A DNA stretch of 32,000 nucleotides from Kiritimatiella glycovorans. GTDB lineage: Bacteria > Verrucomicrobiota > Kiritimatiellia > Kiritimatiellales > Kiritimatiellaceae. The notes beneath the pieces are model-generated. The model had not been told where the DNA came from and made no database searches. It saw nothing but the letters and a program-made list of their open reading frames with translations. The stretch spans positions 1,260,001 to 1,292,000 of the forward strand of contig NZ_CP010904.1 of assembly GCF_001017655.1 (NCBI RefSeq). Reading direction: 5' to 3'. A program made the position numbers and the translations under genes. Below are positions 1,633-26,794 of the stretch, one piece after another; the stretch's first letter is position 1; every line of letters begins with the position of its first letter.

Positions 1633-1709
1633 CGGGGTGTAGCTCAGCCTGGCAGAGCGCTACGTTCGGGACGTAGAAGTCGCTGGTTCGAATCCAGTCA
1701 CCCCGACCA
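1633..1709 (+). tRNA. tRNA-Pro (anticodon CGG)
   Basis: Folded by hand into a 77-nt cloverleaf. Acceptor stem CGGGGTG/CACCCCG, D arm GCTC-AGCCTGGCA-GAGC, anticodon stem CTACG/CGTAG with loop TTCGGGA (anticodon CGG), T arm GCTGG-TTCGAAT-CCAGT, discriminator A, encoded CCA. Confidence 0.95.
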
Positions 1710-2154: not shown

Positions 2155-2267
2155 ATCGTACTCGTACTCAGCGAAGCGGTACGCGTACTCGAGTTCCTTG
2201 AACCGGGGGAGTGGGATCGCGCCTTCGGCGCTCCGAGTACGCGTACGAGTACGAGTAAGAGTACGAA
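2155..2267. repeat. GTAC-hexamer palindromic hairpin repeat, copy A (113 bp)
   Basis: Left arm ATCGTACTCGTACTCAGCGAAGCGGTACGCGTACTCGAG; right arm CTCCGAGTACGCGTACGAGTACGAGTAAGAGTACGAA. Perfect 13-bp inner stem GTACGCGTACTCG (2178-2190) / CGAGTACGCGTAC (2234-2246). Apical hairpin GCGCCTTCGGCGC. Homologous copies at 26637-26737 and, as the right half only, at 3945-3986. Confidence 0.85.
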
Positions 2268-2508
2268 AACGGCGGACGGCCTTCTGCTGTCCAGCAGAAT
2301 CCCTACCCTCACGCGCGGGTTCGGCCTGCACCTCTTGGGTAGGGCGCGATCTCCGCCGGTGGGGTGTCACTATGAAATACGCGAAAGAAGCCGCTTGCAT
2401 TGGCTCCTTTCGATTTCTAGACTTCGCCCCGTAAATAGAAGGCGCCGTTCCGGGAGATTCATCGGAGCCACGGCGCAAGACCCCCGAAAGGAGACCCCCC
2501 CGTTGCAG

Positions 2509-2644: not shown

Positions 2645-3631
2645 ATGGAAGACGACCGCTACCAATCCATGCCCTACCGCCGCTGCGGACACAGCGGACT
2701 CTCCCTGCCGGCGGTTTCGCTGGGGCTGTGGCACAATTTCGGCGCGGACGACGATCGTGACCACACCCGTGAAATAATCCGCACGGCCTTCGACCACGGC
2801 ATCACGCACTTCGACCTCGCCAACAATTACGGACCCCCGCCCGGGGAGGCCGAGGTTCGGTTCGGCGAAATACTTCAGCGCGATCTGGCCGGTCATCGGG
2901 ATGAGCTCATCATTTCGACCAAAGCAGGATTCCCGATGTGGCCCGGCCCGTACGGCGACGGAGGTTCGCGCAAATACCTCATCGCGAGTCTCGATCAGAG
3001 CCTCCGGCGCATGGATCTCGAATACGTGGATATTTTCTATCACCACCGCCCCGACCCCGGGACCCCGGTCGAGGAGACGGTCGGCGCCCTTGCCCACGCG
3101 GTGCACAGCGGCAAGGCGCTCTACGCGGGCATCTCGTCCTATTCCGCGGAAGAGACCAGAACCGCCGCGGCGTATATGCGCGAAGCCGGCATCCCCTGCC
3201 TGATCCACCAGGTCCAGTACCACATGCTGCTCAGGGATGCGGAAGATGCACTGTTCGATACCCTGGAGGATGAAGGTATCGGCGCAATCGCCTTCTGCCC
3301 GCTGGCGCAGGGCCTGCTGACCTCGAAATACCTGGAGGGGATCCCGGAGGGGTCACGGGCGGCGCGCGAAGGCACCTTCCTCGACCCGGAACAAATCGAC
3401 GCGAAAATTCAGAAGGCGTTGCGCGAAATGAATGAAATCGCCGCCGCGCGGGGCCAGACCCTCGCCCGGATGGCCGTATCCTGGGTGTTGCGCGACCCGC
3501 GTATGACTTCCGCCCTGATCGGGGCGAGCCGCGCGGACCAGGTGGTCGAGAACTGTGCCGCGACGCAGGATCCGCCTTTTGACGTCGAAGAACTGCGCCG
3601 CATCGACCGCATCCTGCAATCCGTATCTTAA
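2645..3631 (+). CDS. gpr: Aldo/keto reductase, YghZ/Gpr type (L-glyceraldehyde 3-phosphate reductase-like)
   Basis: 328-aa ORF with RBS AAGGAGG. By recollection it is collinear with E. coli YghZ over the full length: GLSLPAVSLGLWHNFG, GITHFDLANNYGPPPG, DELIISTKAG, PGPYGDGGSRKYL, GKALYAGISSY, ALIGASRADQ. Confidence 0.88.
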   Translation: MEDDRYQSMPYRRCGHSGLSLPAVSLGLWHNFGADDDRDHTREIIRTAFDHGITHFDLANNYGPPPGEAEVRFGEILQRDLAGHRDELIISTKAGFPMWPGPYGDGGSRKYLIASLDQSLRRMDLEYVDIFYHHRPDPGTPVEETVGALAHAVHSGKALYAGISSYSAEETRTAAAYMREAGIPCLIHQVQYHMLLRDAEDALFDTLEDEGIGAIAFCPLAQGLLTSKYLEGIPEGSRAAREGTFLDPEQIDAKIQKALREMNEIAAARGQTLARMAVSWVLRDPRMTSALIGASRADQVVENCAATQDPPFDVEELRRIDRILQSVS

Positions 3632-3671
3632 AGTTATGCCGGAGGACCCGCTGTTGACAGAACTATGTGGT

Positions 3672-3815
3672 CAGCGATTCTCATTATGGCTTCACCCTTT
3701 TCGGTCGGGGTGGCACCCGACCCTCCCAATGCCCGAAAATGCGTCGGATATCGACTCGGGAGGGACGGCTGCCACGCCGTCCGCGGTCGGAATGCGGCCA
3801 TAATGAGAACTGCTG
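3672..3815 (+). mobile_element. 144-bp MITE-like element, copy 1
   Basis: Terminal inverted repeats CAGCGATTCTCATTATGGC / GCCATAATGAGAACTGCTG. Flanking 9-bp direct repeats CTATGTGGT (3663-3671) and CTGTGTGGT (3816-3824). No credible ORF. Inserted into an ATGTGGT-GAAA-ACCACAT hairpin downstream of gpr. Confidence 0.85.
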
Positions 3816-3914
3816 CTGTGTGGTGAAAACCACATGGCAGGTTCGAAGTTCCGGCAGGGGGTTCCAACCAACCATTCCTGACATTTGCGTCCCTTCGCGA
3901 CCATTAGCGGTTCC

Positions 3915-3986
3915 GGGAGCAGTAACCCCGCGGGCGCATCCCCCGGATCGCGCCTCCGGCGCTCCGAGTACGCGTACGAGTACGAA
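3915..3986 (+). repeat. Chimeric repeat copy B: the 38-nt module fused to the right half of the GTAC-hexamer palindrome
   Basis: 3915-3952 matches 2509-2546. 3945-3986 (GGATCGCGCCTCCGGCGCTCCGAGTACGCGTACGAGTACGAA) matches the centre and right arm of copies A and C. The junction lies in the shared octamer GGATCGCG. Confidence 0.75.
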
Positions 3987-4517
3987 TTATGTGAATCCCG
4001 ATTTCTTCGAGACCCCATCCGTGCCATCGGTGTAATCCGGTGCGCCAAGCAAAGCTTGGCTGTTTCTAACTGAATGAAAGGAGTCAGTCGTGTGAATTGA
4101 TCGTTGCACATGTAGCCGACCCAGCGGTGATCGGGGGTAACCCCGGCGTCGAAGCCTGGGAAGGCGAACGCGCGAGCCGTAGCGAAAGCGAACTTGATTC
4201 AGCCTCGTTACACAAGTCGAGGGCGGCCAGCCTATCGGATATGATGAAGCCAGCACTTGTCGGGAAGGAACGGTCATATGCACCGGCAAGGCCCTCCGGG
4301 GTAACAAGAGACGGCGCGCGCAGAAAGAACAGCCAGGAACTTGGGAGGCCCGCCGTGATGTCGGGTAAGCCGACAAGCCCGTGGGGGAATCAATAACCTC
4401 GGGGGTGATCGCGTGCGGGAGTCGGAGAGGCTCGTAGTAGTGATGAAGCGGGGTAATGCCCGTGGAGCGAAGGGGTCTCGGCGGAAGACGAGCTGAGTAA
4501 GAAGCGCGGGGGACTGA

Positions 4518-5861
4518 TTGGTGAAACCTATGACAGAAGAAGCGACGGAGTACTATCGCATTGACGACAGACTCTTGCCGCCGAAACTCGCCGCGCTGAG
4601 ACAGAAGCTGAGTCAGAAGGCCAAACAGGAGAAGCGGTTTCGCTTCTACAGTCTCTATGGCCACATTGGCCGGGCCGACACTCTGCTGGCGGCATGGAAA
4701 CATGTACGCGCCAACGGCGGAAAAGAAGGCCCCGATGGTGTGACCATCGAGGACATCGAACAGAGTCAAGGAGGAGTCGAAGCCTTCTTGGCGGATATTG
4801 AACGCAGCCTGAAGGATCGAACCTACCGTGCTGGAAAAGTGCGGCGGGTCTACATCCAGAAGGTGAACGGGAAACTCCGTCCCTTGGGAATACCCTCGGT
4901 GCGGGATCGGGTCGTGCAGACCGCTACGGTTCTGATATTGGAACCGATCTTTGAAGCTGACTTCAAGGACTGCTCCCATGGGTTCCGGCCTGAGCGCTCG
5001 GCGCATGATGCGTTGAAGGCGATTGGACAGGAGCTCCGGCAAGGGCGGTGTGCGGTTTATGATGCGGATCTGGCCGGCTATTTCGACAGTATTCCACACG
5101 ACAAGCTCATCGCTTGTGTGCAGATGCGTGTCACCGACCGGTCCGTGCTGAAGCTGATCCGAATGTGGCTGAAAGCGCCGGTAGAGGAAACGGAGAAAGG
5201 CAAACCGCCGACCGTGAAGCGCAACGACAAGGGCACGCCGCAAGGCGGGGTCATTTCGCCGCTTCTGGCCAACATCTATCTGCACTGGTTCGATGCGGTG
5301 TTTTACCGCAAAGACGGACCGGCACGGTGGGCGAAGGCCAAACTGGTGAGGTACGCCGATGACTTCGTGGTCCTCGCCCGGTATATCGGTCCGCAACTCG
5401 AAGCGTTCATCGAAGCCAAGATAGAAGGGTGGCTCGGGCTGAAGATCAACCGGGACAAGACCCGGATACTCGATGCTCGGGAACCGGGGCAGACGCTGGA
5501 CTTTCTCGGATATAGCTTCCGCTATGACCGGGACCTCGGCGGACGCCCGTGCCGGTACTGGAACCTGACACCGTCGCGGAAAGCGCTCCAACGGGAACGT
5601 GATCGGCTTCGGGAGATGACCGGACCGGAACAATGCTTCAAACCTCTGCCGACGGTGATCGACGAACTCAACATGCAAATGCGAGGATGGGCAAACTACT
5701 TCTCGCTGGGTTATCCGCGTGTGGCATTCCGCCACGTCAATGGATACGTGCGACAGCGTCTCACGCGACATGCGAAACGACGCAGTCAGCGCGGCTACTG
5801 GCCCCCTGAAGGTATGAGCTACTACGCGCATTTCAAGAACATGGGACTGATCTACCTGTGA
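4518..5861 (+). CDS. Group II intron reverse transcriptase/maturase (no endonuclease domain evident)
   Basis: 447-aa ORF from a TTG at 4518 (ATG alternative at 4530). RT motifs include [45 protein letters not shown] and YADDFVVL. Maturase/X motif RGWANYF. The ORF ends shortly after domain X. Confidence 0.92.
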
Positions 5862-5887
5862 AACCATCCAACAAATGCCTTCCGCGA

Positions 5888-5920
5888 GAGCCGGATGCGG
5901 GAAATCCGCATGTCCGGTTC
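5888..5920 (+). ncRNA. Group II intron domain V (catalytic hairpin)
   Basis: GAGCCGGATGCGGGAAATCCGCATGTCCGGTTC. The AGC triad is in the basal helix GAGCCGG/CCGGTTC. There is a 2-nt bulge (GT) on the 3' strand, an upper helix ATGCGG/CCGCAT and a GAAA-type loop. Confidence 0.9.
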
Positions 5921-6015
5921 GACGAGGGGGAGGGCAGTCCGCGGTCATTGGCTATACGCCTCTCATCCCGTGGCTCCCTCTCTACTCTACTGGTAGAAAA
6001 TATAAGCGAATAACC

Positions 6016-8297: not shown

Positions 8298-10583
8298 TCA
8301 CTTCAGTATCTGCGGCGCGATGTTCAGCCATTCCTGGATCGCGGGCGAAAACTTCACCACCACCGGCGTGAAGACCACGCTGACCATCGTCATCAGTTTG
8401 ATCAGGATGTTCAGCGAAGGACCGCTGGTATCCTTGCAGGGGTCGCCGACCGTGTCGCCGACCACCCCCGCCTTATGGGCGTCGGAACCCTTGCCTCCGT
8501 GCGCGCCCTCCTCGATATACTTCTTCGCGTTGTCCCACGCCCCGCCCGCGTTGTTCAGCATGTTCGCCAGCACGTAACCGGTGGTCAGTCCGCCGGCGAG
8601 CAGACCCAGCACGCCGGGTACGCCGAGCACGAGTCCTCCGGCGATCGGCACGACGATCGCGAGCAGCGAGGGCACGATCATCTCCCGCTGGGCGCCGCGG
8701 GTGGAGATCTCCACACAGCGCGCGTAATCGGGTTTTCCGGTACCCTCCAGGATGCCCTCGATCTCGTTGAACTGGCGGCGGACCTCGTCGCCCATCAGGC
8801 CGGCCGCCCGCCCCACGGCCTTCATGGTCATCGCGCAGAACACGAACGCCATCATGGCGCCCAGAAAGATGCCGCAGATCAGCAGCGGATTCATGATATG
8901 CAGCTCGTAGATCTCCACGAAATCCATGATTTCGAGATGCGTCGTCTCGCCCTGCACTCCGAACTTGGCCGCCACGTCCGGCAGACGCCCGATCCACAGT
9001 TTCACCTCGTCGATGTACGCCGCCAGCAGCGCCATCGCGGTCAGCGCGGCCGATCCGATCGCGAACCCTTTACCCGTCGCCGCCGTGGTATTGCCGAGCG
9101 AATCGAGCGCATCGGTTTTCCGGCGCACGTCCGGGGGAAGACCGCACATCTCGGCATTGCCTCCGGCGTTATCGGCGATCGGACCGTAGGCGTCCGTAGC
9201 CAGGGTGATGCCCAGCGTGGCAAGCATGCCGACCGCGGCGAACCCGATCCCGTAAAGCCCCATCCCGATATTTGAAAAACCGTCGGCGAATCCGAACGCG
9301 CAGATAATGCCGAGCACGATCGTGATCACGGGAATGCCCGCCGACATCATACCCACGGCCAGTCCGTCGATGATCGTCGTGGCCGGACCCATGCGCGCCT
9401 GCTCGGCGATACCCCGGGTCGGCTTGTATTCCGCCGAGGTGAAGAATTCAGTCGACTGTCCGATAATCACTCCCGCGACCAGTCCGGCAACCACCGAGAA
9501 CACCACGCCCAGCGGAATCATTCCCGCGGCATAGATTCCGAAGAGCGCCACGACGATGAGCGCCGAGCTGGTGAGCGTACCCGTCGCCAGGGCCCGAAGC
9601 AGCTGCTTCTGGGAGGCACCCTCCTTGCAGCGCACGAGAAACACGCCGAAGATCGAGAGCAGAACGCCGATCCCGGCCACGATCATCGGGGCGGTCACCA
9701 TCCCGACCGCCTCGCCGATGTCGCGGCGCACGCCGACCGACGCCCCGAGCGCCATGGTGGCCAGGATCGAGCCGCAGTACGATTCGTACAGGTCGGCTCC
9801 CATACCCGCCACGTCGCCCACGTTGTCGCCCACGTTGTCGGCGATCGTCGCCGGATTGCGCGGGTCGTCCTCGGGAATACCCGCTTCGACCTTTCCTACC
9901 AGGTCGGCGCCGATGTCGGCCGCCTTGGTGTAAATCCCGCCGCCCACACGGGCGAAGAGCGCCTGCGTCGAGGCCCCCATGCCGAACGTGATCATGGTGG
10001 TGGTCATCTCGACCAGCTTCTGCGACGCGGTGGTGCCCTCCTCGACCAGTGTCATGCCGAAGAGATGCAGTCCGTGGGCCATGTTGGCGGGGGTGTAGAC
10101 CAGGCGGTCGAGGATCAGGTACCACAGGCAGATGTCGAGCAGCCCGAAGCCGACGACCACCAGACCCATGACGGCCCCGGAGCGGAAGGCCACCTTGAGG
10201 CCCTTGTTCAATCCCTCCCGGCAGCCCTGCGCCGTGCGGGAGGAGGCCGACGTGGCCGTGCGCATGCCGATGTACCCGCACAGTCCCGAAAAGAAACCGC
10301 CCGTCAGAAAGGCCACCGGCACAAACGGATTCTGGATGTGAAAGACGGCGAGCACGCCCAGCAGCAGGAAAAGCACGGCGAATACCTTGATCACCACACC
10401 GTACTGGCGCCGGATATAGGCCATCGCCCCTTCGCGCACGTAACCCGCGATGCGCTGCATGTCCTCGTTGCCCGCCGGTGACTTGAACATGTCGTGATGA
10501 AAGTAGCCTGCGAACACGAGCGCCAGCACGGAAGCCGCGGGCGCAAACCACCAGAACCAGGGAGTCACGAATAGTTGATCCAT
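8298..10583 (-). CDS. hppA: Membrane-bound ion-translocating pyrophosphatase
   Basis: 761-aa polytopic ORF with hallmark motifs [66 protein letters not shown]. Confidence 0.95.
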
Positions 10584-12608: not shown

Positions 12609-12752
12609 CAGCGATTCTCATTATGGCTTCACCCTTTTCGGTCGGGGTGGCACCCGACCCTCCCAGTGCCCGAAAATGCGTCGGATATCGACTCGGGAGG
12701 GACGGCTGCCACGCCGTCCGCGGTCGGAATGCGGCCATAATGAGAACTGCTG
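12609..12752 (+). mobile_element. 144-bp MITE-like element, copy 2 (no target-site duplication)
   Basis: 143/144 identical to copy 1 and to copy 3. The flanks CAGGCGTCG and TTTGATTAT do not match each other. Confidence 0.85.
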
Positions 12753-12964
12753 TTTGATTATTGGTTGCTCTGCGACCGTCTGAGCTGTACCCTTATTCAT
12801 GGAGCGTATCCTTTCTCCCGGCTACTACCGGGGTGTTCTGATCTCGTGAATCAGAAGGATACGCTCTTCTCTTACTCATCCACAACTTTCGGTTATACCT
12901 CCCCCTTGGACAAGTTGAACCGTCTGCAGCAGGAGATGTTTTCCGTGACTGGCTGCGTGGTGAA

Positions 12965-14437
12965 ATGCGAACCCTGATCGCCGATATTCTGGCTGAAGAG
13001 GTCACAGAACTGTGTGGTCCGGCCTACAAGCCGGCAGGGGACAGAGGCTGCCGACGTGCCGGCGGAACCCGCGTAGGACTTCGAATTGACGGTATTGATG
13101 AGGAGATCCGCAAGCCGCGTGTACGTCGCCATGAGGCAGACACATCGAAGGAGGTCAGGCTTAAAAGTTACGACGCGGTCAACAGGGCCGACGACCTTCG
13201 TGACCGTATCTTGCGTGCCACAGCTGCCGGAGTCAGTTCACGTGATCAGAAAACCTTGTATCCCGATTCAGCGCCCGGACGCAGCAGGGTTTCCCGCGCC
13301 TGGATTGTCGAGGGCCGACAGCGCATACAGAAGCTCCGTGACCGCGACCTGAAGTCCGAGAGGTTCTTCTGCATGCTGCTGGACGGCATTGTACTGTCCG
13401 AGGATCTCAGCGCCATTGTGGGGCTGGGCATTACGCTGGACGGCCGCAAAGTTATGCTGGATTTTGAAATAGGCGCACAGGAATCGACAGAAGTGTGTGA
13501 CGCATTGCTCGACCGCAGCCGTTCTCATTATGGCCGCATTCCGACCGCGGACGGCGTGGCAGCCGTCCCTCCCGAGTCGATATCCGACGCATTTTCGGGC
13601 ACTGGGAGGGTCGGGTGCCACCCCGACCGAAAAGGGTGAAGCCATAATGAGAATCGCTGGCTCGACCGGCTTGTCCACCGCGGTCTTGAGTTCGAGGGCG
13701 ATCCGTTGGCGGTTCTCGACGGTTCTCGGGCACTTCATAACAGCGTCTTGAAGCATTTTCCGCGAGCGCGCATTCAACGATGCCTGGTGCATAAGGAACG
13801 AAATATTAAGCGTTGTCTCTCCAGGCGTCATCACGGCAGCGTGAGCGACGTTTTCAAGCGTCTCCGCTCCGTGGAAGGCGAAGAAGCCGGACGTGAAGCA
13901 CTCGCCGATCCGGAACGCTTTCTGAGCCGGCACAGCCACAAGGCCCTGGAATCCCTGCACGAGGCCGGTGAGGAGCTCATTACGGTTCACAAGCTGAATG
14001 CGCCGTCCACTCTACACACCACGTTGACGAACACAAACTGCATCGAGAACCCGTTCCGAAACACACGCGCAAAAATCGGGCGGGTGAAGCGTTGGCGCGC
14101 AGAGACGGATCAGGCGGAACGCTGGCTGGCCTATTCGCTTCCGACAGCCGAGAAAGGGTTCCGTCGAATCAAAGGCTATCGTCAGATCCCGGTGCTTTTG
14201 AAATCCCTGGGCTGGCCATCGGAAGCTGTTGAGGCGTCGCTCCGCTCCGCCCTTGGCCCTCCGGGCCATCCCGCCTCCGGCGGGAACGGGCTCCACTCCA
14301 CGACGCCTCACCCCCAGGCAGAGAGCGAAGCGAACTGCCGAACAGGGACTGGACAAGAGAATGACAAGGAACTACATCGAAATGAAGACCGAGACCGCCA
14401 ACGAGTTTCAACAGGATTCGGGACATCCCCGAGGTAG
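12965..14437 (+). pseudogene. IS256/Mutator-family transposase gene interrupted by a MITE insertion
   Basis: The two ORFs (12965-13639 and 13706-14437) are in the same frame. Removing 153 bp (the element plus one 9-bp duplication) restores ...EVCDALLDRLVHRGLEFEGDPLAVLDGSRAL.... Family motifs present: LLDGI, GITLDG, ESTE, RGL, DG, FPRARIQRCLVHKERN, TNCIEN. The insertion brings an in-frame TGA at 13637-13639. Confidence 0.85.
13516..13659 (-). mobile_element. 144-bp MITE-like element, copy 3 (inverted orientation, inside the transposase gene)
   Basis: Perfect 9-bp target-site duplication GCTCGACCG at 13507-13515 and 13660-13668. 143/144 identical to copy 2. Confidence 0.9.
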
Positions 14438-14473
14438 TATGCCCCTTCTATAAGGACTTATCTCATCGATGAT

Positions 14474-21842: not shown

Positions 21843-22943
21843 TCACGTCCCCGCCAGAAACTCGATCACGTCGCCGTCGCGGACGACGTAGTCTTTTCCC
21901 TCTTCGCGCATGAGCCCTTTATCGCGGCAGCCCTTCTCGCCGCCGTGACCGATAAAATCGTCGTATGCGATCACACGTGCGCGGATGAATCCCCGCTCGA
22001 AATCGGTATGAATCTTCCCGGCCGCCTCTGGCGCTTTGGCGCCCCGGCGCACCGTCCAGGCGCGGACTTCCTTGGGTCCGGCCGTGAAGAACGTGATCAA
22101 TCCCAGCGTGTGGTACGCGGCATGGACGAGGCGATCGAGTCCCCGTTCCCCCAGTCCGAGCTCCTCGCGCATACCTTCCGCCTCCTCCGCGTCGAATTCG
22201 CGCAGATCCTCCTCTTCGCGCGCACAGATCTCCACGAGGTCCACCCCGCGCTGACCGGTGCGCTCACGGAGCCGGTCGACCGCCGTTTGCGATTCGTGTC
22301 GTCCGGACGTATCGGTGTTGGCGCAGTAGAGGATCGGCTTGGCGGTCAGCAGCGGCACGGCCCGGAGAAGGTCGGCGAGAGGACCTCCGGGCGGCTCCTC
22401 GGCCGTTGTCGCCGGTCGGCCCTCGCCCAGCCGGGCGAGCAGGCGGTCGATCACCTCGATTTGCGCCTGCCAGGTGCGGTCGCCCCGCACCCACTTCTCC
22501 ACTTTTTCGCGTCGCCGCTCGAGGGTCTCGATGTCGGCCAGCATCAGCTCGGTTTCGATCACATCCGCATCGCGGCACGGATCCATGCCGCCCCCGACGT
22601 GCGCGATGTTGTCGTCGTGAAAGCAGCGGATCACGTGCAGCAGGGCATCCGCGAGCCGGACTTCGGCCAGGAACCGGTTCCCGAGCCCTTCGCCACGGCT
22701 CGCGCCTTCCACCAGGCCCGCGATATCGGCAAACTCCACGGCGGTCGGCACGACTTTGGCCGGCCGCGCAATTTCGGCGATGGCCTCCAGTCGCGGATCG
22801 CGCACCGGAACCGCCGCACGGTTCGATTCGATGGTGCAGAACGGGTAGTTCGCCGTCTCCGCGCGCGCTTCCGTGGAGAGGGCGTTGAAAACCGTGGATT
22901 TGCCCACATTGGGCAGCCCTACAATGCCGATATGTACACTCAT
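21843..22943 (-). CDS. ychF: Ribosome-binding ATPase YchF
   Basis: Start placed at MSVHIGIVGLPNVGKSTVFNAL (P-loop); the 22 codons upstream in the track ORF are not conserved-looking. Full-length YchF features include the C-terminal TGS-like region KIHTDFERGFIRA. Confidence 0.93.
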   Translation of the reverse strand: MSVHIGIVGLPNVGKSTVFNALSTEARAETANYPFCTIESNRAAVPVRDPRLEAIAEIARPAKVVPTAVEFADIAGLVEGASRGEGLGNRFLAEVRLADALLHVIRCFHDDNIAHVGGGMDPCRDADVIETELMLADIETLERRREKVEKWVRGDRTWQAQIEVIDRLLARLGEGRPATTAEEPPGGPLADLLRAVPLLTAKPILYCANTDTSGRHESQTAVDRLRERTGQRGVDLVEICAREEEDLREFDAEEAEGMREELGLGERGLDRLVHAAYHTLGLITFFTAGPKEVRAWTVRRGAKAPEAAGKIHTDFERGFIRARVIAYDDFIGHGGEKGCRDKGLMREEGKDYVVRDGDVIEFLAGT

Positions 22944-23053
22944 CCGTATCGCCTTCCGGTCAGGAGTTCCGGGCCGCGAACAAAGCGGCTTTCCGGTAAA
23001 GCGGGACACTCTGATCGATCACCGGCCGGAATTCAACACCGGGAGGCCCTGAA

Positions 23054-23197
23054 CAGCGATTCTCATTATGGCTTCACCCTTTTCGGTCGGGGTGGCACCC
23101 GCCCCTCCCAATGCCCGAAAAGGCGTCGGATAACGACTCGGGAGGGACGGCTGCCACGCCGTCCGCAGTCGGAATGCGGCCATAATGAGAACGGCTG
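23054..23197 (+). mobile_element. 144-bp MITE-like element, copy 4 (most diverged)
   Basis: 139/144 identical to copy 1. Flanking 9-bp repeats GGCCCTGAA (23045-23053) and GGCACTGAA (23198-23206). It lies about 110 bp upstream of the ychF start. Confidence 0.85.
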
Positions 23198-23244
23198 GGC
23201 ACTGAAACCTCGAAATCCCGCCCGCACTCTGTTTCCATAACGGT

Positions 23245-23461: not shown

Positions 23462-23923
23462 TCAGCCGCGGCGGCAGCGCGAGCACCGGCCCAGTACCAG
23501 GACCCGCCACGCCCGCTGCTCGAAATCGTGGCGGCGGCAAAGATCTTCGATCAGCGCGCCGAACGCCTCTCCCCCCACTTCGATATAGGCTCCGCACACC
23601 TCGCACTTCAGGTGTTCGTGTCGCGGCCGCTTGAAGATGTGCTCGTAGTGGGCGTGGGCCTCGGAGTCGACGATCTTGCGCACGAATCCGGATTCCAGCA
23701 GAAGATCCAGCGAGCGGTAGACGGTACCGCGGCTCACCCTGCCCTCCCCCCGTGCCAGCGCCGCCGCCAGTTCATCGGCCGAAAAATGATCGTCGCGCGC
23801 CAGCACCCCGGCAAAGACTTTCTTGCGGGCCTCCGTCACGCGAAACCCGCGCGAATGCAGGTGGCGGACAAATTCCTCCAGCGCCTCTTCACGCCAGTGC
23901 CCGTTGACCGTCGTCCGGCTCAT
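23462..23923 (-). CDS. Fur-family metalloregulator (Fur/Zur/PerR subtype unresolved)
   Basis: 153-aa ORF with a winged-helix region (RVTEARKKVFAGV...GTVYRSLDLLLESGFV), HYEH, and CxxC...CxxC (CEVCG, CSRC). The start overlaps the upstream gene's stop (ATGA at 23923-23920). Confidence 0.88.
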   Translation of the reverse strand: MSRTTVNGHWREEALEEFVRHLHSRGFRVTEARKKVFAGVLARDDHFSADELAAALARGEGRVSRGTVYRSLDLLLESGFVRKIVDSEAHAHYEHIFKRPRHEHLKCEVCGAYIEVGGEAFGALIEDLCRRHDFEQRAWRVLVLGRCSRCRRG

Positions 23924-26576: not shown

Positions 26577-26794
26577 GTGGATTTTGGTGGAACAACTGAA
26601 ATCGTAGCGGCTGGATTAGAAATCCGCTCGCGTCACATCGTACTCGTACTCAGCGAAGCGGTACTCGTACTCGATTTTTTTGAACAGAGGGAGTGGGATC
26701 GCGCCTTCGGCGCTCCGAGTACGAGTAAGAGTACGAATTATGTTCACCCCTTCAAGCCCTTCATGTCCTTCAACGACACCCCACCAAAATCCAC
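26577..26794. repeat. 218-bp composite repeat unit bounded by a perfect 14-bp inverted repeat, enclosing GTAC-hexamer palindrome copy C
   Basis: GTGGATTTTGGTGG (26577-26590) and CCACCAAAATCCAC (26781-26794). The left end (TTTTTTTGGTTCTTTGTGGATTTTGGTGGA) is homologous to 1858-1895. The right end (AATCCACGAATAAC) resembles 1754-1769, 2583-2595 and 6001-6010. Confidence 0.7.
26637..26737. repeat. GTAC-hexamer palindromic hairpin repeat, copy C (101 bp)
   Basis: ATCGTACTCGTACTCAGCGAAGCGGTACTCGTACTCGA...GGGAGTGGGATCGCGCCTTCGGCGCTCCGAGTACGAGTAAGAGTACGAA. The central 38 nt (GGGAGTGGGATCGCGCCTTCGGCGCTCCGAGTAC plus flanking bases) are identical to copy A. Confidence 0.85.

What the first reader, a model, noticed from the sequence alone, without database searches (positions are those of the whole stretch)
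3663..3824. 144-bp MITE-like element family, four near-identical copies with 9-bp target-site duplications
Four copies of exactly 144 bp occur in 32 kb: 3672-3815 (+), 12609-12752 (+), 13516-13659 (-) and 23054-23197 (+). By hand alignment they differ at 1 to 5 positions. All have ~19-bp imperfect terminal inverted repeats, CAGCGATTCTCATTATGGC ... GCCATAATGAGAAC[T/G]GCTG, and no credible ORF. Three copies are flanked by 9-bp direct repeats: CTATGTGGT/CTGTGTGGT, GCTCGACCG/GCTCGACCG (perfect) and GGCCCTGAA/GGCACTGAA. This is the signature of a non-autonomous DDE-transposon derivative that moved recently. No element in the window has matching ends, so the mobilising transposase is unidentified. 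A 9-bp duplication fits several IS families (IS4, IS256, ISAs1, IS1), and I cannot discriminate among them from the sequence. I do not recognise the element as a named repeat or RNA family.
Basis: seen in the sequence. Interest (0 to 1): 0.7.

Follow-up and report, generated by a model that had tools for sequence, protein, structure and literature searches.

The report
Small non-coding transposon (MITE) family
The four 144-bp repeats are real copies of a miniature, non-coding transposon in Kiritimatiella glycovorans whose ends match a widespread Tn5-like insertion sequence family; this is a sound but fairly ordinary find, with the twist that one copy sits inside another transposon that has itself multiplied.

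Summary
The window holds four 144-bp copies that differ at 1-6 positions. Each has 19-bp terminal inverted repeats, CAGC[G/A/C][A/G]TTCTCATTATGGC. Three copies have 9-bp target-site duplications (9/9, 8/9, 8/9) and copy 2 has none. The MITE reading is supported.

Deleting copy 3 plus one duplicated 9-mer restores an IS256-family transposase. The restored protein aligns without gaps, 433/439 identical, to an intact paralogue of the same genome.

The same 19-bp end occurs in more than 120 genome stretches from many phyla. Most are 70-530-bp elements with unrelated interiors and 9-bp duplications. It also bounds ~1.44-kb insertion sequences that encode a ~430-aa DDE transposase. NCBI names that protein 'ISNCY family'. 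It matches PF01609 weakly, and its predicted fold matches Tn5 transposase best. So the likely mobiliser is this Tn5-like ISNCY-type transposase, not IS256, IS1, ISAs1 or canonical IS4.

No such transposase lies in the window. The host genome could not be searched.

Extra finding: at least 7 loci in this genome carry the IS256 transposase gene split at the same codon by this MITE. Only 2 copies are intact.

Verdict: new member of a known kind, modest interest.

The parts
3663..3671 (.). Left target-site duplication of copy 1 (CTATGTGGT)
   Evidence: Matches 8/9 with 3816-3824.
3672..3815 (+). MITE copy 1, 144 bp. It lies in the intergenic region 41 nt after the aldo/keto reductase gene (2645-3631) and upstream of a group II intron.
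   Evidence: It folds as a near full-length hairpin (-78.7 kcal/mol, z -6.4).
3816..3824 (.). Right target-site duplication of copy 1 (CTGTGTGGT)
12609..12752 (+). MITE copy 2, 144 bp, with no flanking duplication (CAGGCGTCG / TTTGATTAT). It lies about 67 nt before the candidate left end of the IS256-family element.
12820..14443 (+). IS256-family element (approximate ends) that hosts copy 3. Its transposase gene is split into ORFs 12965-13639 and 13706-14437.
   Evidence: Pfam Transposase_mut matches both halves. After the MITE plus one 9-mer is removed, the match is continuous at 95 bits. The restored protein is 433/439 identical, without gaps, to the intact paralogue AKJ65688. Candidate imperfect end repeats were found.
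13507..13515 (.). Target-site duplication of copy 3 (GCTCGACCG)
   Evidence: Perfect 9/9 match with 13660-13668.
13516..13659 (-). MITE copy 3, 144 bp, inserted inside the IS256-family transposase gene
13660..13668 (.). Second copy of the target-site duplication of copy 3 (GCTCGACCG)
23045..23053 (.). Left target-site duplication of copy 4 (GGCCCTGAA)
   Evidence: Matches 8/9 with 23198-23206.
23054..23197 (+). MITE copy 4, 144 bp, the most diverged copy (5-6 differences). It lies between fur (23462-23923, -) and ychF (21843-23009, -).
23198..23206 (.). Right target-site duplication of copy 4 (GGCACTGAA)

Best explanation
[quoted passage not shown] Its 19-bp ends are the terminal inverted repeats of a widespread group of ~1.44-kb insertion sequences. 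Those ISs encode one ~430-aa DDE transposase, labelled 'ISNCY family' by NCBI and predicted to have a Tn5-like fold.

Inferred mechanism: the transposase, supplied in trans, binds the two 19-bp ends. It excises the element and integrates it by strand transfers staggered by 9 bp. Repair of the gaps gives the 9-bp duplications.

Shown here: the element's anatomy; its insertion into a gene; identity of its ends with those of autonomous ISs that make 9-bp duplications; and the fold of their transposase.

Inferred: that such a transposase exists, or recently existed, in this genome, and that the chemistry is cut-and-paste as in Tn5.

Copy 3 lies inside an IS256-family element. That MITE-bearing IS256 is present at at least 7 loci. 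So part of the MITE's copy number comes from riding on IS256, or from gene conversion among IS256 copies.
For: Anatomy in the window:
- Four copies differ at only 1-6 of 144 positions, with 17/19 TIRs and 9-bp duplications in 3 of 4.

Proof of insertion:
- Removing copy 3 plus one 9-mer fuses two Transposase_mut fragments (30.8 and 45.1 bits) into one continuous 95.3-bit match.
- The fused protein aligns without gaps, 433/439 identical, to the intact K. glycovorans IS256 transposase AKJ65688.

Relatives elsewhere:
- The pattern CAGCNNTTCTCATTATGGC hit more than 120 genome stretches in many phyla.
- 54 short elements (70-533 bp) with both ends were found there. Of these, 37 have 9-mers matching with at most 2 mismatches, against about 1.6% in shuffled pairs.
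- Their interiors are unrelated to ours.

Autonomous partners:
- The 1453-bp element in L018 carries a 434-aa ORF.
- Eight 1437-bp copies encoding P0044 have ends CAGCAATTCTCATTTTGGC...GCCATAATGAGAACTGCTG. The right end is identical to the right end of copies 1 and 2. Six of the eight have perfect 9-bp duplications. L130 likewise has these ends with a perfect 9-bp duplication. The N. punctiforme (L121) element has the ends with a 10-bp repeat, and the Gloeothece (L136) element has the ends but no matching flanks.

The transposase:
- At least 7923 homologues were found, some named 'ISNCY family transposase'.
- 15 of 20 sampled members match PF01609 DDE_Tnp_1.
- The AF2 model has pLDDT 88.9, and its best PDB matches are Tn5 transposase, 1MUH and 4DM0 (E 3e-10, probability 1.00).
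- From my own knowledge, Tn5 makes 9-bp duplications.
Against: - No homologue of the partner transposase lies in the 32-kb window. The cognate transposase in K. glycovorans is therefore unproven.
- Copy 2 has no duplication.
- Two duplications are 8/9, not perfect.
- The interior of the MITE resembles none of the sampled full-length ISs beyond the TIR, so derivation by internal deletion of a known parent is not shown.
- No transposition experiment exists for this IS group that I could find.
Confidence: 0.9

Rival explanations
1. The MITE is mobilised by the IS256-family transposase that is present in this genome. IS256-type elements also make 8-9-bp duplications, and one sits next to copy 2 and around copy 3.
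For: An IS256-family element is in the window. Two intact transposase genes of this family exist in the genome. From my own knowledge, the duplication length is compatible.
Against: Nothing in the window other than the 8 MITE ends lies within 3 mismatches of the MITE terminus. The candidate IS256 ends, GGCTACTACCGGGGTGT / GGCATACTACCTCGGGGATGT, are unrelated. The MITE terminus is identical or nearly identical (17-19 of 19) to the ends of a different IS group. IS256 explains only the passive spread of copy 3 and its sister copies.
Confidence: 0.03
2. The copies are relics. The cognate transposase has been lost from K. glycovorans, so the element no longer moves on its own. It persists or spreads only by hitch-hiking in IS256, by recombination or by duplication.
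For: There is no cognate transposase in the window. Copy 2 lacks a duplication, as expected after recombination between copies. At least 7 of the known copies are nested in IS256 at one and the same site. In the 120 stretches from other genomes, MITEs far outnumber full-length ISs; only 3 stretches encode the transposase.
Against: Copies 1, 2 and 3 differ at only 1-2 of 144 positions, and solo copies 1 and 4 keep 8/9 duplications. That points to recent transposition. The genome carries 75 transposase genes that were not inspected here (PMC5148204).
Confidence: 0.2
3. The repeat is a structured RNA gene or regulatory hairpin (sRNA, terminator or attenuator) kept by selection, not mobile DNA.
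For: Both strands fold into a long hairpin far more stable than shuffles (z -6.4 and -8.2). Three copies are intergenic.
Against: There is no Rfam match at gathering score, and only noise (E > 1, at most 18 bits) in a permissive scan. No T-run or terminator-like site was found around copy 4, the only copy scanned. One copy disrupts a coding sequence with a 9-bp duplication. The interior is not conserved in other genomes, whereas the ends are. A secondary effect of the hairpin on neighbouring transcripts is not excluded.
Confidence: 0.03

Closest known systems
Bacterial MITEs in general (e.g. Correia, RUP, Chunjie, MaeMITEs)
   Same: Small size (144 bp), no transposase, terminal inverted repeats, target-site duplications, multiple near-identical copies, a long hairpin fold, and ends shared with an autonomous IS.
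   Different: This particular sequence was not found in the searchable literature, in PLSDB plasmids or in JGI metagenomes.
Nezha MITE / ISNpu3 of Nostocales (Zhou et al. 2008; described in PMC3184786 and PMC6042816)
   Same: Nezha is 130-170 bp, folds stably, and shares its TIR and direct repeat with an IS of Nostoc punctiforme. A reported Nezha copy has a 10-bp repeat. A N. punctiforme 'ISNCY family' IS, homologous to our partner transposase (43% identity), has ends CAGCAATTCTCAT[C/T]ATGAG and a 10-bp flanking repeat.
   Different: I could not obtain the Nezha or ISNpu3 sequences, so the link is a lead and not a test. The interior of our element has no similarity to the cyanobacterial elements. 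Our duplications are 9 bp. The host belongs to a different phylum.
Tn5/IS50 and the IS4 family
   Same: DDE_Tnp_1 domain, 9-bp duplications, short TIRs starting with C, and a single transposase ORF. The predicted partner transposase superposes over its full length on Tn5 transposase.
   Different: Sequence similarity is marginal. The IS4 NCBIfam model scores 20-35 bits against a cutoff of 152. PF01609 is mostly below or near its cutoff. A profile search found no PDB homologue by sequence. NCBI files the proteins under ISNCY, not IS4.
ISAs1 family
   Same: Ends begin with CAG and duplications are 8-10 bp (from my own knowledge). 2 of 20 partner transposases weakly match PF13808 DDE_Tnp_1_assoc, a domain that from my own knowledge is typical of ISAs1 transposases.
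   Different: Only 2 of 20 match, and weakly (best E 0.0016). The terminal sequence differs from the CAGGG-type end I recall for ISAs1.

Membership tests
MITE (non-autonomous DDE-transposon derivative) | Short (under ~600 bp), multicopy, no transposase gene | tested here: met
   Four copies of 144 bp, 96-99% identical. No ORF longer than 47 codons is possible.
MITE (non-autonomous DDE-transposon derivative) | Terminal inverted repeats | tested here: met
   19-nt arms pair at 17/19 in all four copies, with 0 matches expected by chance.
MITE (non-autonomous DDE-transposon derivative) | Target-site duplication of fixed length | tested here: met
   9 bp in 3 of 4 copies (9/9, 8/9, 8/9). The same length is seen in 37 of 54 related short elements.
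MITE (non-autonomous DDE-transposon derivative) | Empty site showing that the element was inserted | tested here: met
   Removing copy 3 plus one 9-mer restores an IS256 transposase that is colinear with an intact paralogue of the same genome. No orthologous empty site in another strain could be looked for.
MITE (non-autonomous DDE-transposon derivative) | Ends shared with an autonomous IS that encodes a transposase | tested here: met
   L018 and L121 each carry the ends around one transposase ORF. L130 and most of L122-L129 also have 9-bp duplications.
MITE (non-autonomous DDE-transposon derivative) | Cognate autonomous element in the same genome | not testable with these tools
   None in the window. 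The K. glycovorans genome could not be fetched.
ISNCY-type IS group with CAGCAATTCTCATTATGGC ends (as the source of the MITE) | Terminal sequence | tested here: met
   The MITE right end CAGCAGTTCTCATTATGGC is identical to the right end of the P0044 IS. The left end is 18/19 to the L018 IS.
ISNCY-type IS group with CAGCAATTCTCATTATGGC ends (as the source of the MITE) | 9-bp duplication | tested here: met
   Six of eight P0044 copies and L130 have perfect 9-mers. The window copies also have 9-bp duplications.
ISNCY-type IS group with CAGCAATTCTCATTATGGC ends (as the source of the MITE) | Subterminal or internal similarity to a parent IS (origin by internal deletion) | tested here: not met
   There is no similarity beyond the 19-nt TIR to four full-length ISs or to 120 related stretches. 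The true parent may simply not have been sampled.
Nezha MITE family | Sequence identity of the TIR to Nezha/ISNpu3 | not testable with these tools
   The paper is not held. There is no supplement. Only indirect support is available.
IS4 family proper | Transposase passes the curated IS4 family model | tested here: not met
   NF033591 scores 19.8-34.8 bits against a cutoff of 152. The fold is nevertheless Tn5-like.
IS256 family (as mobiliser) | MITE ends match IS256 ends | tested here: not met
   the IS256 copy in the window has unrelated candidate ends.
Known structured RNA family (Rfam) | Match to a covariance model at gathering score | tested here: not met
REP/BIME elements moved by RAYT transposases | 20-40-bp palindromes without target-site duplication | tested here: not met
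   The element is 144 bp, with 19-bp TIRs and 9-bp duplications.

The most novel reading that the evidence does not exclude
The MITE has two routes of multiplication. One is its own Tn5-like ISNCY-type transposase. The other is passive: after inserting into an IS256-family element, the disabled composite (IS256::MITE) was copied by the non-cognate IS256 transposase until it outnumbered its autonomous parent by at least 7 loci to 2. The seven truncated 253-aa N-terminal transposase fragments may in addition act as trans-inhibitors of IS256. That would make this a parasite-of-a-parasite arrangement that damps IS256 activity.
Probability: 0.25. Interest if true: 0.5.

Novelty: new member of a known kind. 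Interest (0 to 1): 0.35.

Why it matters
- It explains a dense repeat in the only cultured type strain of the phylum Kiritimatiellota. It also flags several 'hypothetical protein' and split-transposase annotations as products of MITE insertion.
- It links a 19-bp end that is conserved from Cyanobacteria to the PVC bacteria and Proteobacteria with a very abundant but poorly classified IS group ('ISNCY'). This IS group has spawned many independent MITE families.
- The IS256::MITE composite that outnumbers intact IS256 is a tidy natural example of nested mobile elements and of non-autonomous derivatives overtaking their parents.
- None of this changes how MITEs are understood.

Tried and rejected
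- Rfam at gathering score and in a permissive scan gave nothing credible.
- BLAST of the 144-mer against PLSDB plasmids gave no match.
- Two exact-pattern scans of JGI metagenomes were run with MITE-specific 24-mers. One gave 0 hits. The other gave one 27-nt match to an inner hairpin with no TIRs, which is not the element.
- A viral-contig scan for the terminus gave only one hit.
- Attempts to reach the host genome through exact protein look-ups failed three times, so no genome-wide census was possible.
- Copy 1 was tested for lying in an IS256 remnant, because 15 nt of its flank resemble IS256. There is no protein-level similarity, so this was rejected.
- Left-half versus right-half identity was tested as a measure of 'foldback' origin. 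It did not discriminate MITEs from IS ends and was dropped.
- I looked for the displaced duplication of copy 2 on the far side of IS256 and did not find it.
- A literature search for the terminal sequence returned only unrelated primers.
- The Nezha paper and the relevant supplements are not held.
- BLAST of a synthetic mini-element made from the N. punctiforme IS ends found only Nostoc and Aulosira plasmids. It did not settle the Nezha link.
- A target-site logo from 41 duplications shows only a weak Y-Y-S...R bias.

Full report
**1. Observation**

The repeat finder and a MAFFT alignment confirm four copies of exactly 144 bp at 3672-3815 (+), 12609-12752 (+), 13516-13659 (-) and 23054-23197 (+). 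Pairwise differences are 1, 1, 2, 5, 5 and 6 positions. Every copy starts with CAGCGATTCTCATTATGGC. Read inward from the other end, every copy starts with CAGC[A/C]GTTCTCATTATGGC, so 17 of 19 positions pair. These eight ends are the only sites in the window within 3 mismatches of the motif, and shuffles give none.

The flanking 9-mers are:

| Copy | Left / right 9-mer | Match |
|---|---|---|
| 1 | CTATGTGGT / CTGTGTGGT | 8/9 |
| 3 | GCTCGACCG / GCTCGACCG | 9/9 |
| 4 | GGCCCTGAA / GGCACTGAA | 8/9 |
| 2 | CAGGCGTCG / TTTGATTAT | none |

Both strands fold into a nearly full-length hairpin (-78.7 and -83.4 kcal/mol; z -6.4 and -8.2 against shuffles).

**2. Direct proof of insertion**

Copy 3 lies between two ORFs, 12965-13639 and 13706-14437. 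Both match the Mutator/IS256 transposase domain, at profile positions 31-217 and 229-344. Deleting the 144 bp plus one copy of GCTCGACCG gives one ORF with a single continuous match (positions 31-343, 95.3 bits).

A database search with the restored protein found an intact 491-aa 'IS256 family transposase [Kiritimatiella glycovorans]'. It aligns to the restored protein without a gap across the junction (...CDALLDRLVHRG...), 433/439 identical. This serves as an empty site in a paralogous copy. It shows that the element was inserted and that the insertion created the 9-bp repeat.

**3. Host**

The H+-pyrophosphatase encoded at 8298-10583 is 100% identical to the Kiritimatiella glycovorans protein, which lies on a 2,949,723-bp contig. 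The genome paper reports 75 transposase genes, and a term search of its main text found no mention of MITEs (PMC5148204). The genome is absent from the gene-position index.

**4. The same ends elsewhere**

These come from Kiritimatiellia, Lentisphaerae/Victivallales, Verrucomicrobiota, Planctomycetota, Alpha-, Gamma- and Deltaproteobacteria, Chloroflexi (Anaerolineae), Cyanobacteria and others. The sequence diverges completely immediately inside the 19-mer.

Allowing 4 mismatches for the second end gives 54 short elements of 70-533 bp with both flanks available. Of these, 17 have perfect 9-bp flanking repeats, 14 have one mismatch and 6 have two. About 1.6% would be expected from shuffled pairs.

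None of these elements shares the interior of the K. glycovorans element. Two MITE-specific 24-mers found no copy of it in JGI metagenomes. The 144-mer is therefore a lineage-specific member of a large set of MITEs defined by a common terminus.

**5. The autonomous partner**

Only three of the 120 stretches encode a shared protein next to the terminus. In L018 a 1453-bp element bounded by the motif carries one 434-aa ORF. This protein has at least 7923 homologues at E <= 1e-10. Most are about 430 aa and sit on ~1.4-1.9-kb contigs, as expected for a repeated IS. Some are named 'ISNCY family transposase' by NCBI.

Retrieving homologues by protein, which is independent of the terminus, gave:

- Eight copies of a 1437-bp IS in one assembly, with ends CAGCAATTCTCATTTTGGC ... 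GCCATAATGAGAACTGCTG. Six have perfect 9-bp duplications and one more has a repeat shifted by one base.
- One further IS, L130, with a perfect 9-mer.
- A Nostoc punctiforme plasmid IS (43% identity) with ends CAGCAATTCTCAT[C/T]ATGAG and a 10-bp flanking repeat.
- A Gloeothece IS (43% identity) with CAGCAATTCTCATTTTG[G/A]A.
- An Aureispira homologue (32% identity) in which only the outer ~10 nt are kept. Three other distant homologues showed no recognisable end.

The right end of window copies 1 and 2 is identical over 19/19 positions to the right end of the 1437-bp IS.

**6. What kind of transposase**

- Pfam DDE_Tnp_1 (PF01609) matches 15 of 20 sampled members (best E 4e-8). Two members weakly match PF13808.
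- The curated IS4 model scores only 20-35 bits against a cutoff of 152.
- A sequence profile finds no solved structure.
- An AlphaFold2 model (pLDDT 88.9, pTM 0.90) matches Tn5 transposase best and over its full length: 1MUH and 4DM0, E 3e-10 to 4e-10, probability 1.00, TM 0.49-0.58.
- Invariant acidic residues lie in the motifs ALDGT, GDDL and RWKIENE. This fits a DDE triad, but the assignment is my inference.

**7. Mechanism**

Shown: the ends, the 9-bp duplications, the insertion, the shared ends with autonomous ISs, and the Tn5-like fold of their transposase.

Inferred from established knowledge of Tn5/IS4-type DDE enzymes: the transposase binds the 19-bp ends, pairs them, excises the element, and joins it to target phosphates 9 bp apart. 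Repair then yields the duplication.

Not shown: that K. glycovorans has, or recently had, such a transposase. The window has none. Copies 1-3 differ at only 1-2 positions, which argues for recent activity.

Copy 2 has no duplication. Recombination between copies or an adjacent deletion could explain this. I found no displaced 9-mer.

**8. Nested amplification**

Cluster look-ups of the annotated fragments show at least 7 K. glycovorans loci where the IS256 transposase is cut at the same codon. In each, the N-terminal fragment runs into the same MITE-encoded tail...CDALLDR|SRSHYGRIPTADGVAAVPPESISDAFSGTGRVGCHPDRKG. The loci are AKJ63397/8, AKJ63938, AKJ64332/3 (this window), AKJ64546/7, AKJ64755/6, AKJ65242/3 and AKJ65562/3.

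The C-terminal fragments read out of the IS into six different flanking sequences, so these are different genomic sites. Only two copies are intact (AKJ65631, AKJ65688). Target preference is weak, so seven independent hits at one codon in one orientation are unlikely.

The likelier account is one insertion followed by spread of the disabled composite. The spread could have been by IS256 transposase acting in trans, or by gene conversion among IS256 copies. The substitution patterns among the fragments look mosaic, so conversion is plausible. This means copy 3 is probably a passenger. It also gives a lower bound of about 10 MITE copies in the genome.

**9. Comparison with what is known**

The element meets every testable criterion of a bacterial MITE.

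The closest named relative may be Nezha. Nezha is 130-170 bp, occurs in Anabaena and Nostoc, and has the TIR and direct repeat of ISNpu3 of N. punctiforme (PMC3184786). One reported copy has a 10-bp repeat (PMC6042816). The N. punctiforme IS found here has our terminus and a 10-bp repeat. I could not obtain the Nezha or ISNpu3 sequences, so this remains a lead.

From memory only, ISfinder has an ISNCY subgroup (ISMae2) with 9-bp duplications and CAG-type ends. I did not verify this.

The element works like a Tn5/IS4-type transposon. Its partner does not pass the curated IS4 model, so I do not file it as IS4. IS256 is rejected as the mobiliser of the solo copies because its ends are unrelated.

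**10. Rivals**

A structured-RNA reading is rejected for four reasons. There is no Rfam match. The interior is not conserved elsewhere. One copy is a disruptive insertion with a duplication. No terminator-like site was found around copy 4, the only copy scanned. The reading that the element is a relic without a cognate transposase remains open (about 0.2), because the genome could not be searched.

**11. Verdict**

This is a correct and well-described MITE. It is a new, host-specific member of a known kind. It belongs to a terminus-defined swarm of MITEs spawned by an abundant Tn5-like 'ISNCY' IS group. Interest is modest (0.35). The cross-phylum conservation of a 15-19-nt end and the 7:2 excess of IS256::MITE over intact IS256 are the only mildly unusual points.

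Noticed in passing
window 12820-14443 and other K. glycovorans loci (AKJ63397/8, 63938, 64546/7, 64755/6, 65242/3, 65562/3): The IS256-family transposase is split at the same codon by this MITE in at least 7 loci, each with a different right flank. Only 2 copies are intact (AKJ65631, AKJ65688). The disabled composite outnumbers its parent.
   Followed up: partly
window 4080-5990 (+): Group II intron: Rfam group-II-D1D4-6 at 4080-4312 (76 bits) and Intron_gpII at 5886-5990 (50.5 bits). It carries an RT/maturase ORF at 4518-5861 (RVT_1 and GIIM). It lies about 265 nt downstream of MITE copy 1.
   Followed up: partly
window 2155-2268, 3945-3999, 26637-26750: A second repeat family of about 100 nt. 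Its arms are made of GTACGAGTACGA-type units around a core GGGATCGCGCCTTCGGCGCTCC (78-92% identity). The 3945-3999 copy is partial and sits just before the group II intron. Translations of the same motif (…SYSYS…RVRVRVR…) appear in the read-through tails of IS256 fragments at other loci, so it is probably abundant in the genome.
   Followed up: partly
window 3657-3671 vs 13004-13018; 3648-3659 vs 13672-13683 (rc): The left flank of copy 1, ACAGAACTATGTGGT, matches 14/15 an internal IS256 sequence, ACAGAACTGTGTGGT. The right duplication of copy 1, CTGTGTGGT, is identical to IS256 13010-13018. Also, 13-24 nt outside the left ends of copies 1 and 3, both flanks read CCGC.GT.GACA (10/12). There is no protein-level similarity of the copy 1 flank to IS256. 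This is chance, extended target preference or a remnant; it is unexplained.
   Followed up: partly
L131 900-926 (JGI contig Ga0194054_10016105): A 27-nt stretch identical to the inner hairpin arm of the MITE (CTCGGGAGGGACGGCTGCCACGCCGTC) sits in a similar small hairpin, but without the terminal repeats. The MITE core may derive from, or converge on, a separate hairpin repeat.
   Followed up: partly
L121 467-2127 (Nostoc punctiforme pNPUN02) and L123: The cyanobacterial IS of this group is flanked by a 10-bp direct repeat, CCCAACTCAG. One copy of the 1437-bp IS (L123) also fits 10 bp better than 9. The duplication length is therefore not strictly fixed in the group.
   Followed up: no
L001-L120: Many unrelated MITE interiors carried between the conserved ends contain other recognisable short palindromic repeats, for example ACTACAAACGG...CCGTTCGTAGT and GTCATTCCGGCATGGA...CCGGAATCC. 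This suggests that these ends repeatedly capture local hairpin repeats.
   Followed up: no
window 1633-1706 (+): A tRNA gene (Rfam, 64.5 bits).
   Followed up: no
L137 1746-1764 (IMG/VR contig IMGVR_UViG_3300020161_002487): This is the only exact match to the terminus among 2.9 million viral contigs, so the family is rare in viruses.
   Followed up: no
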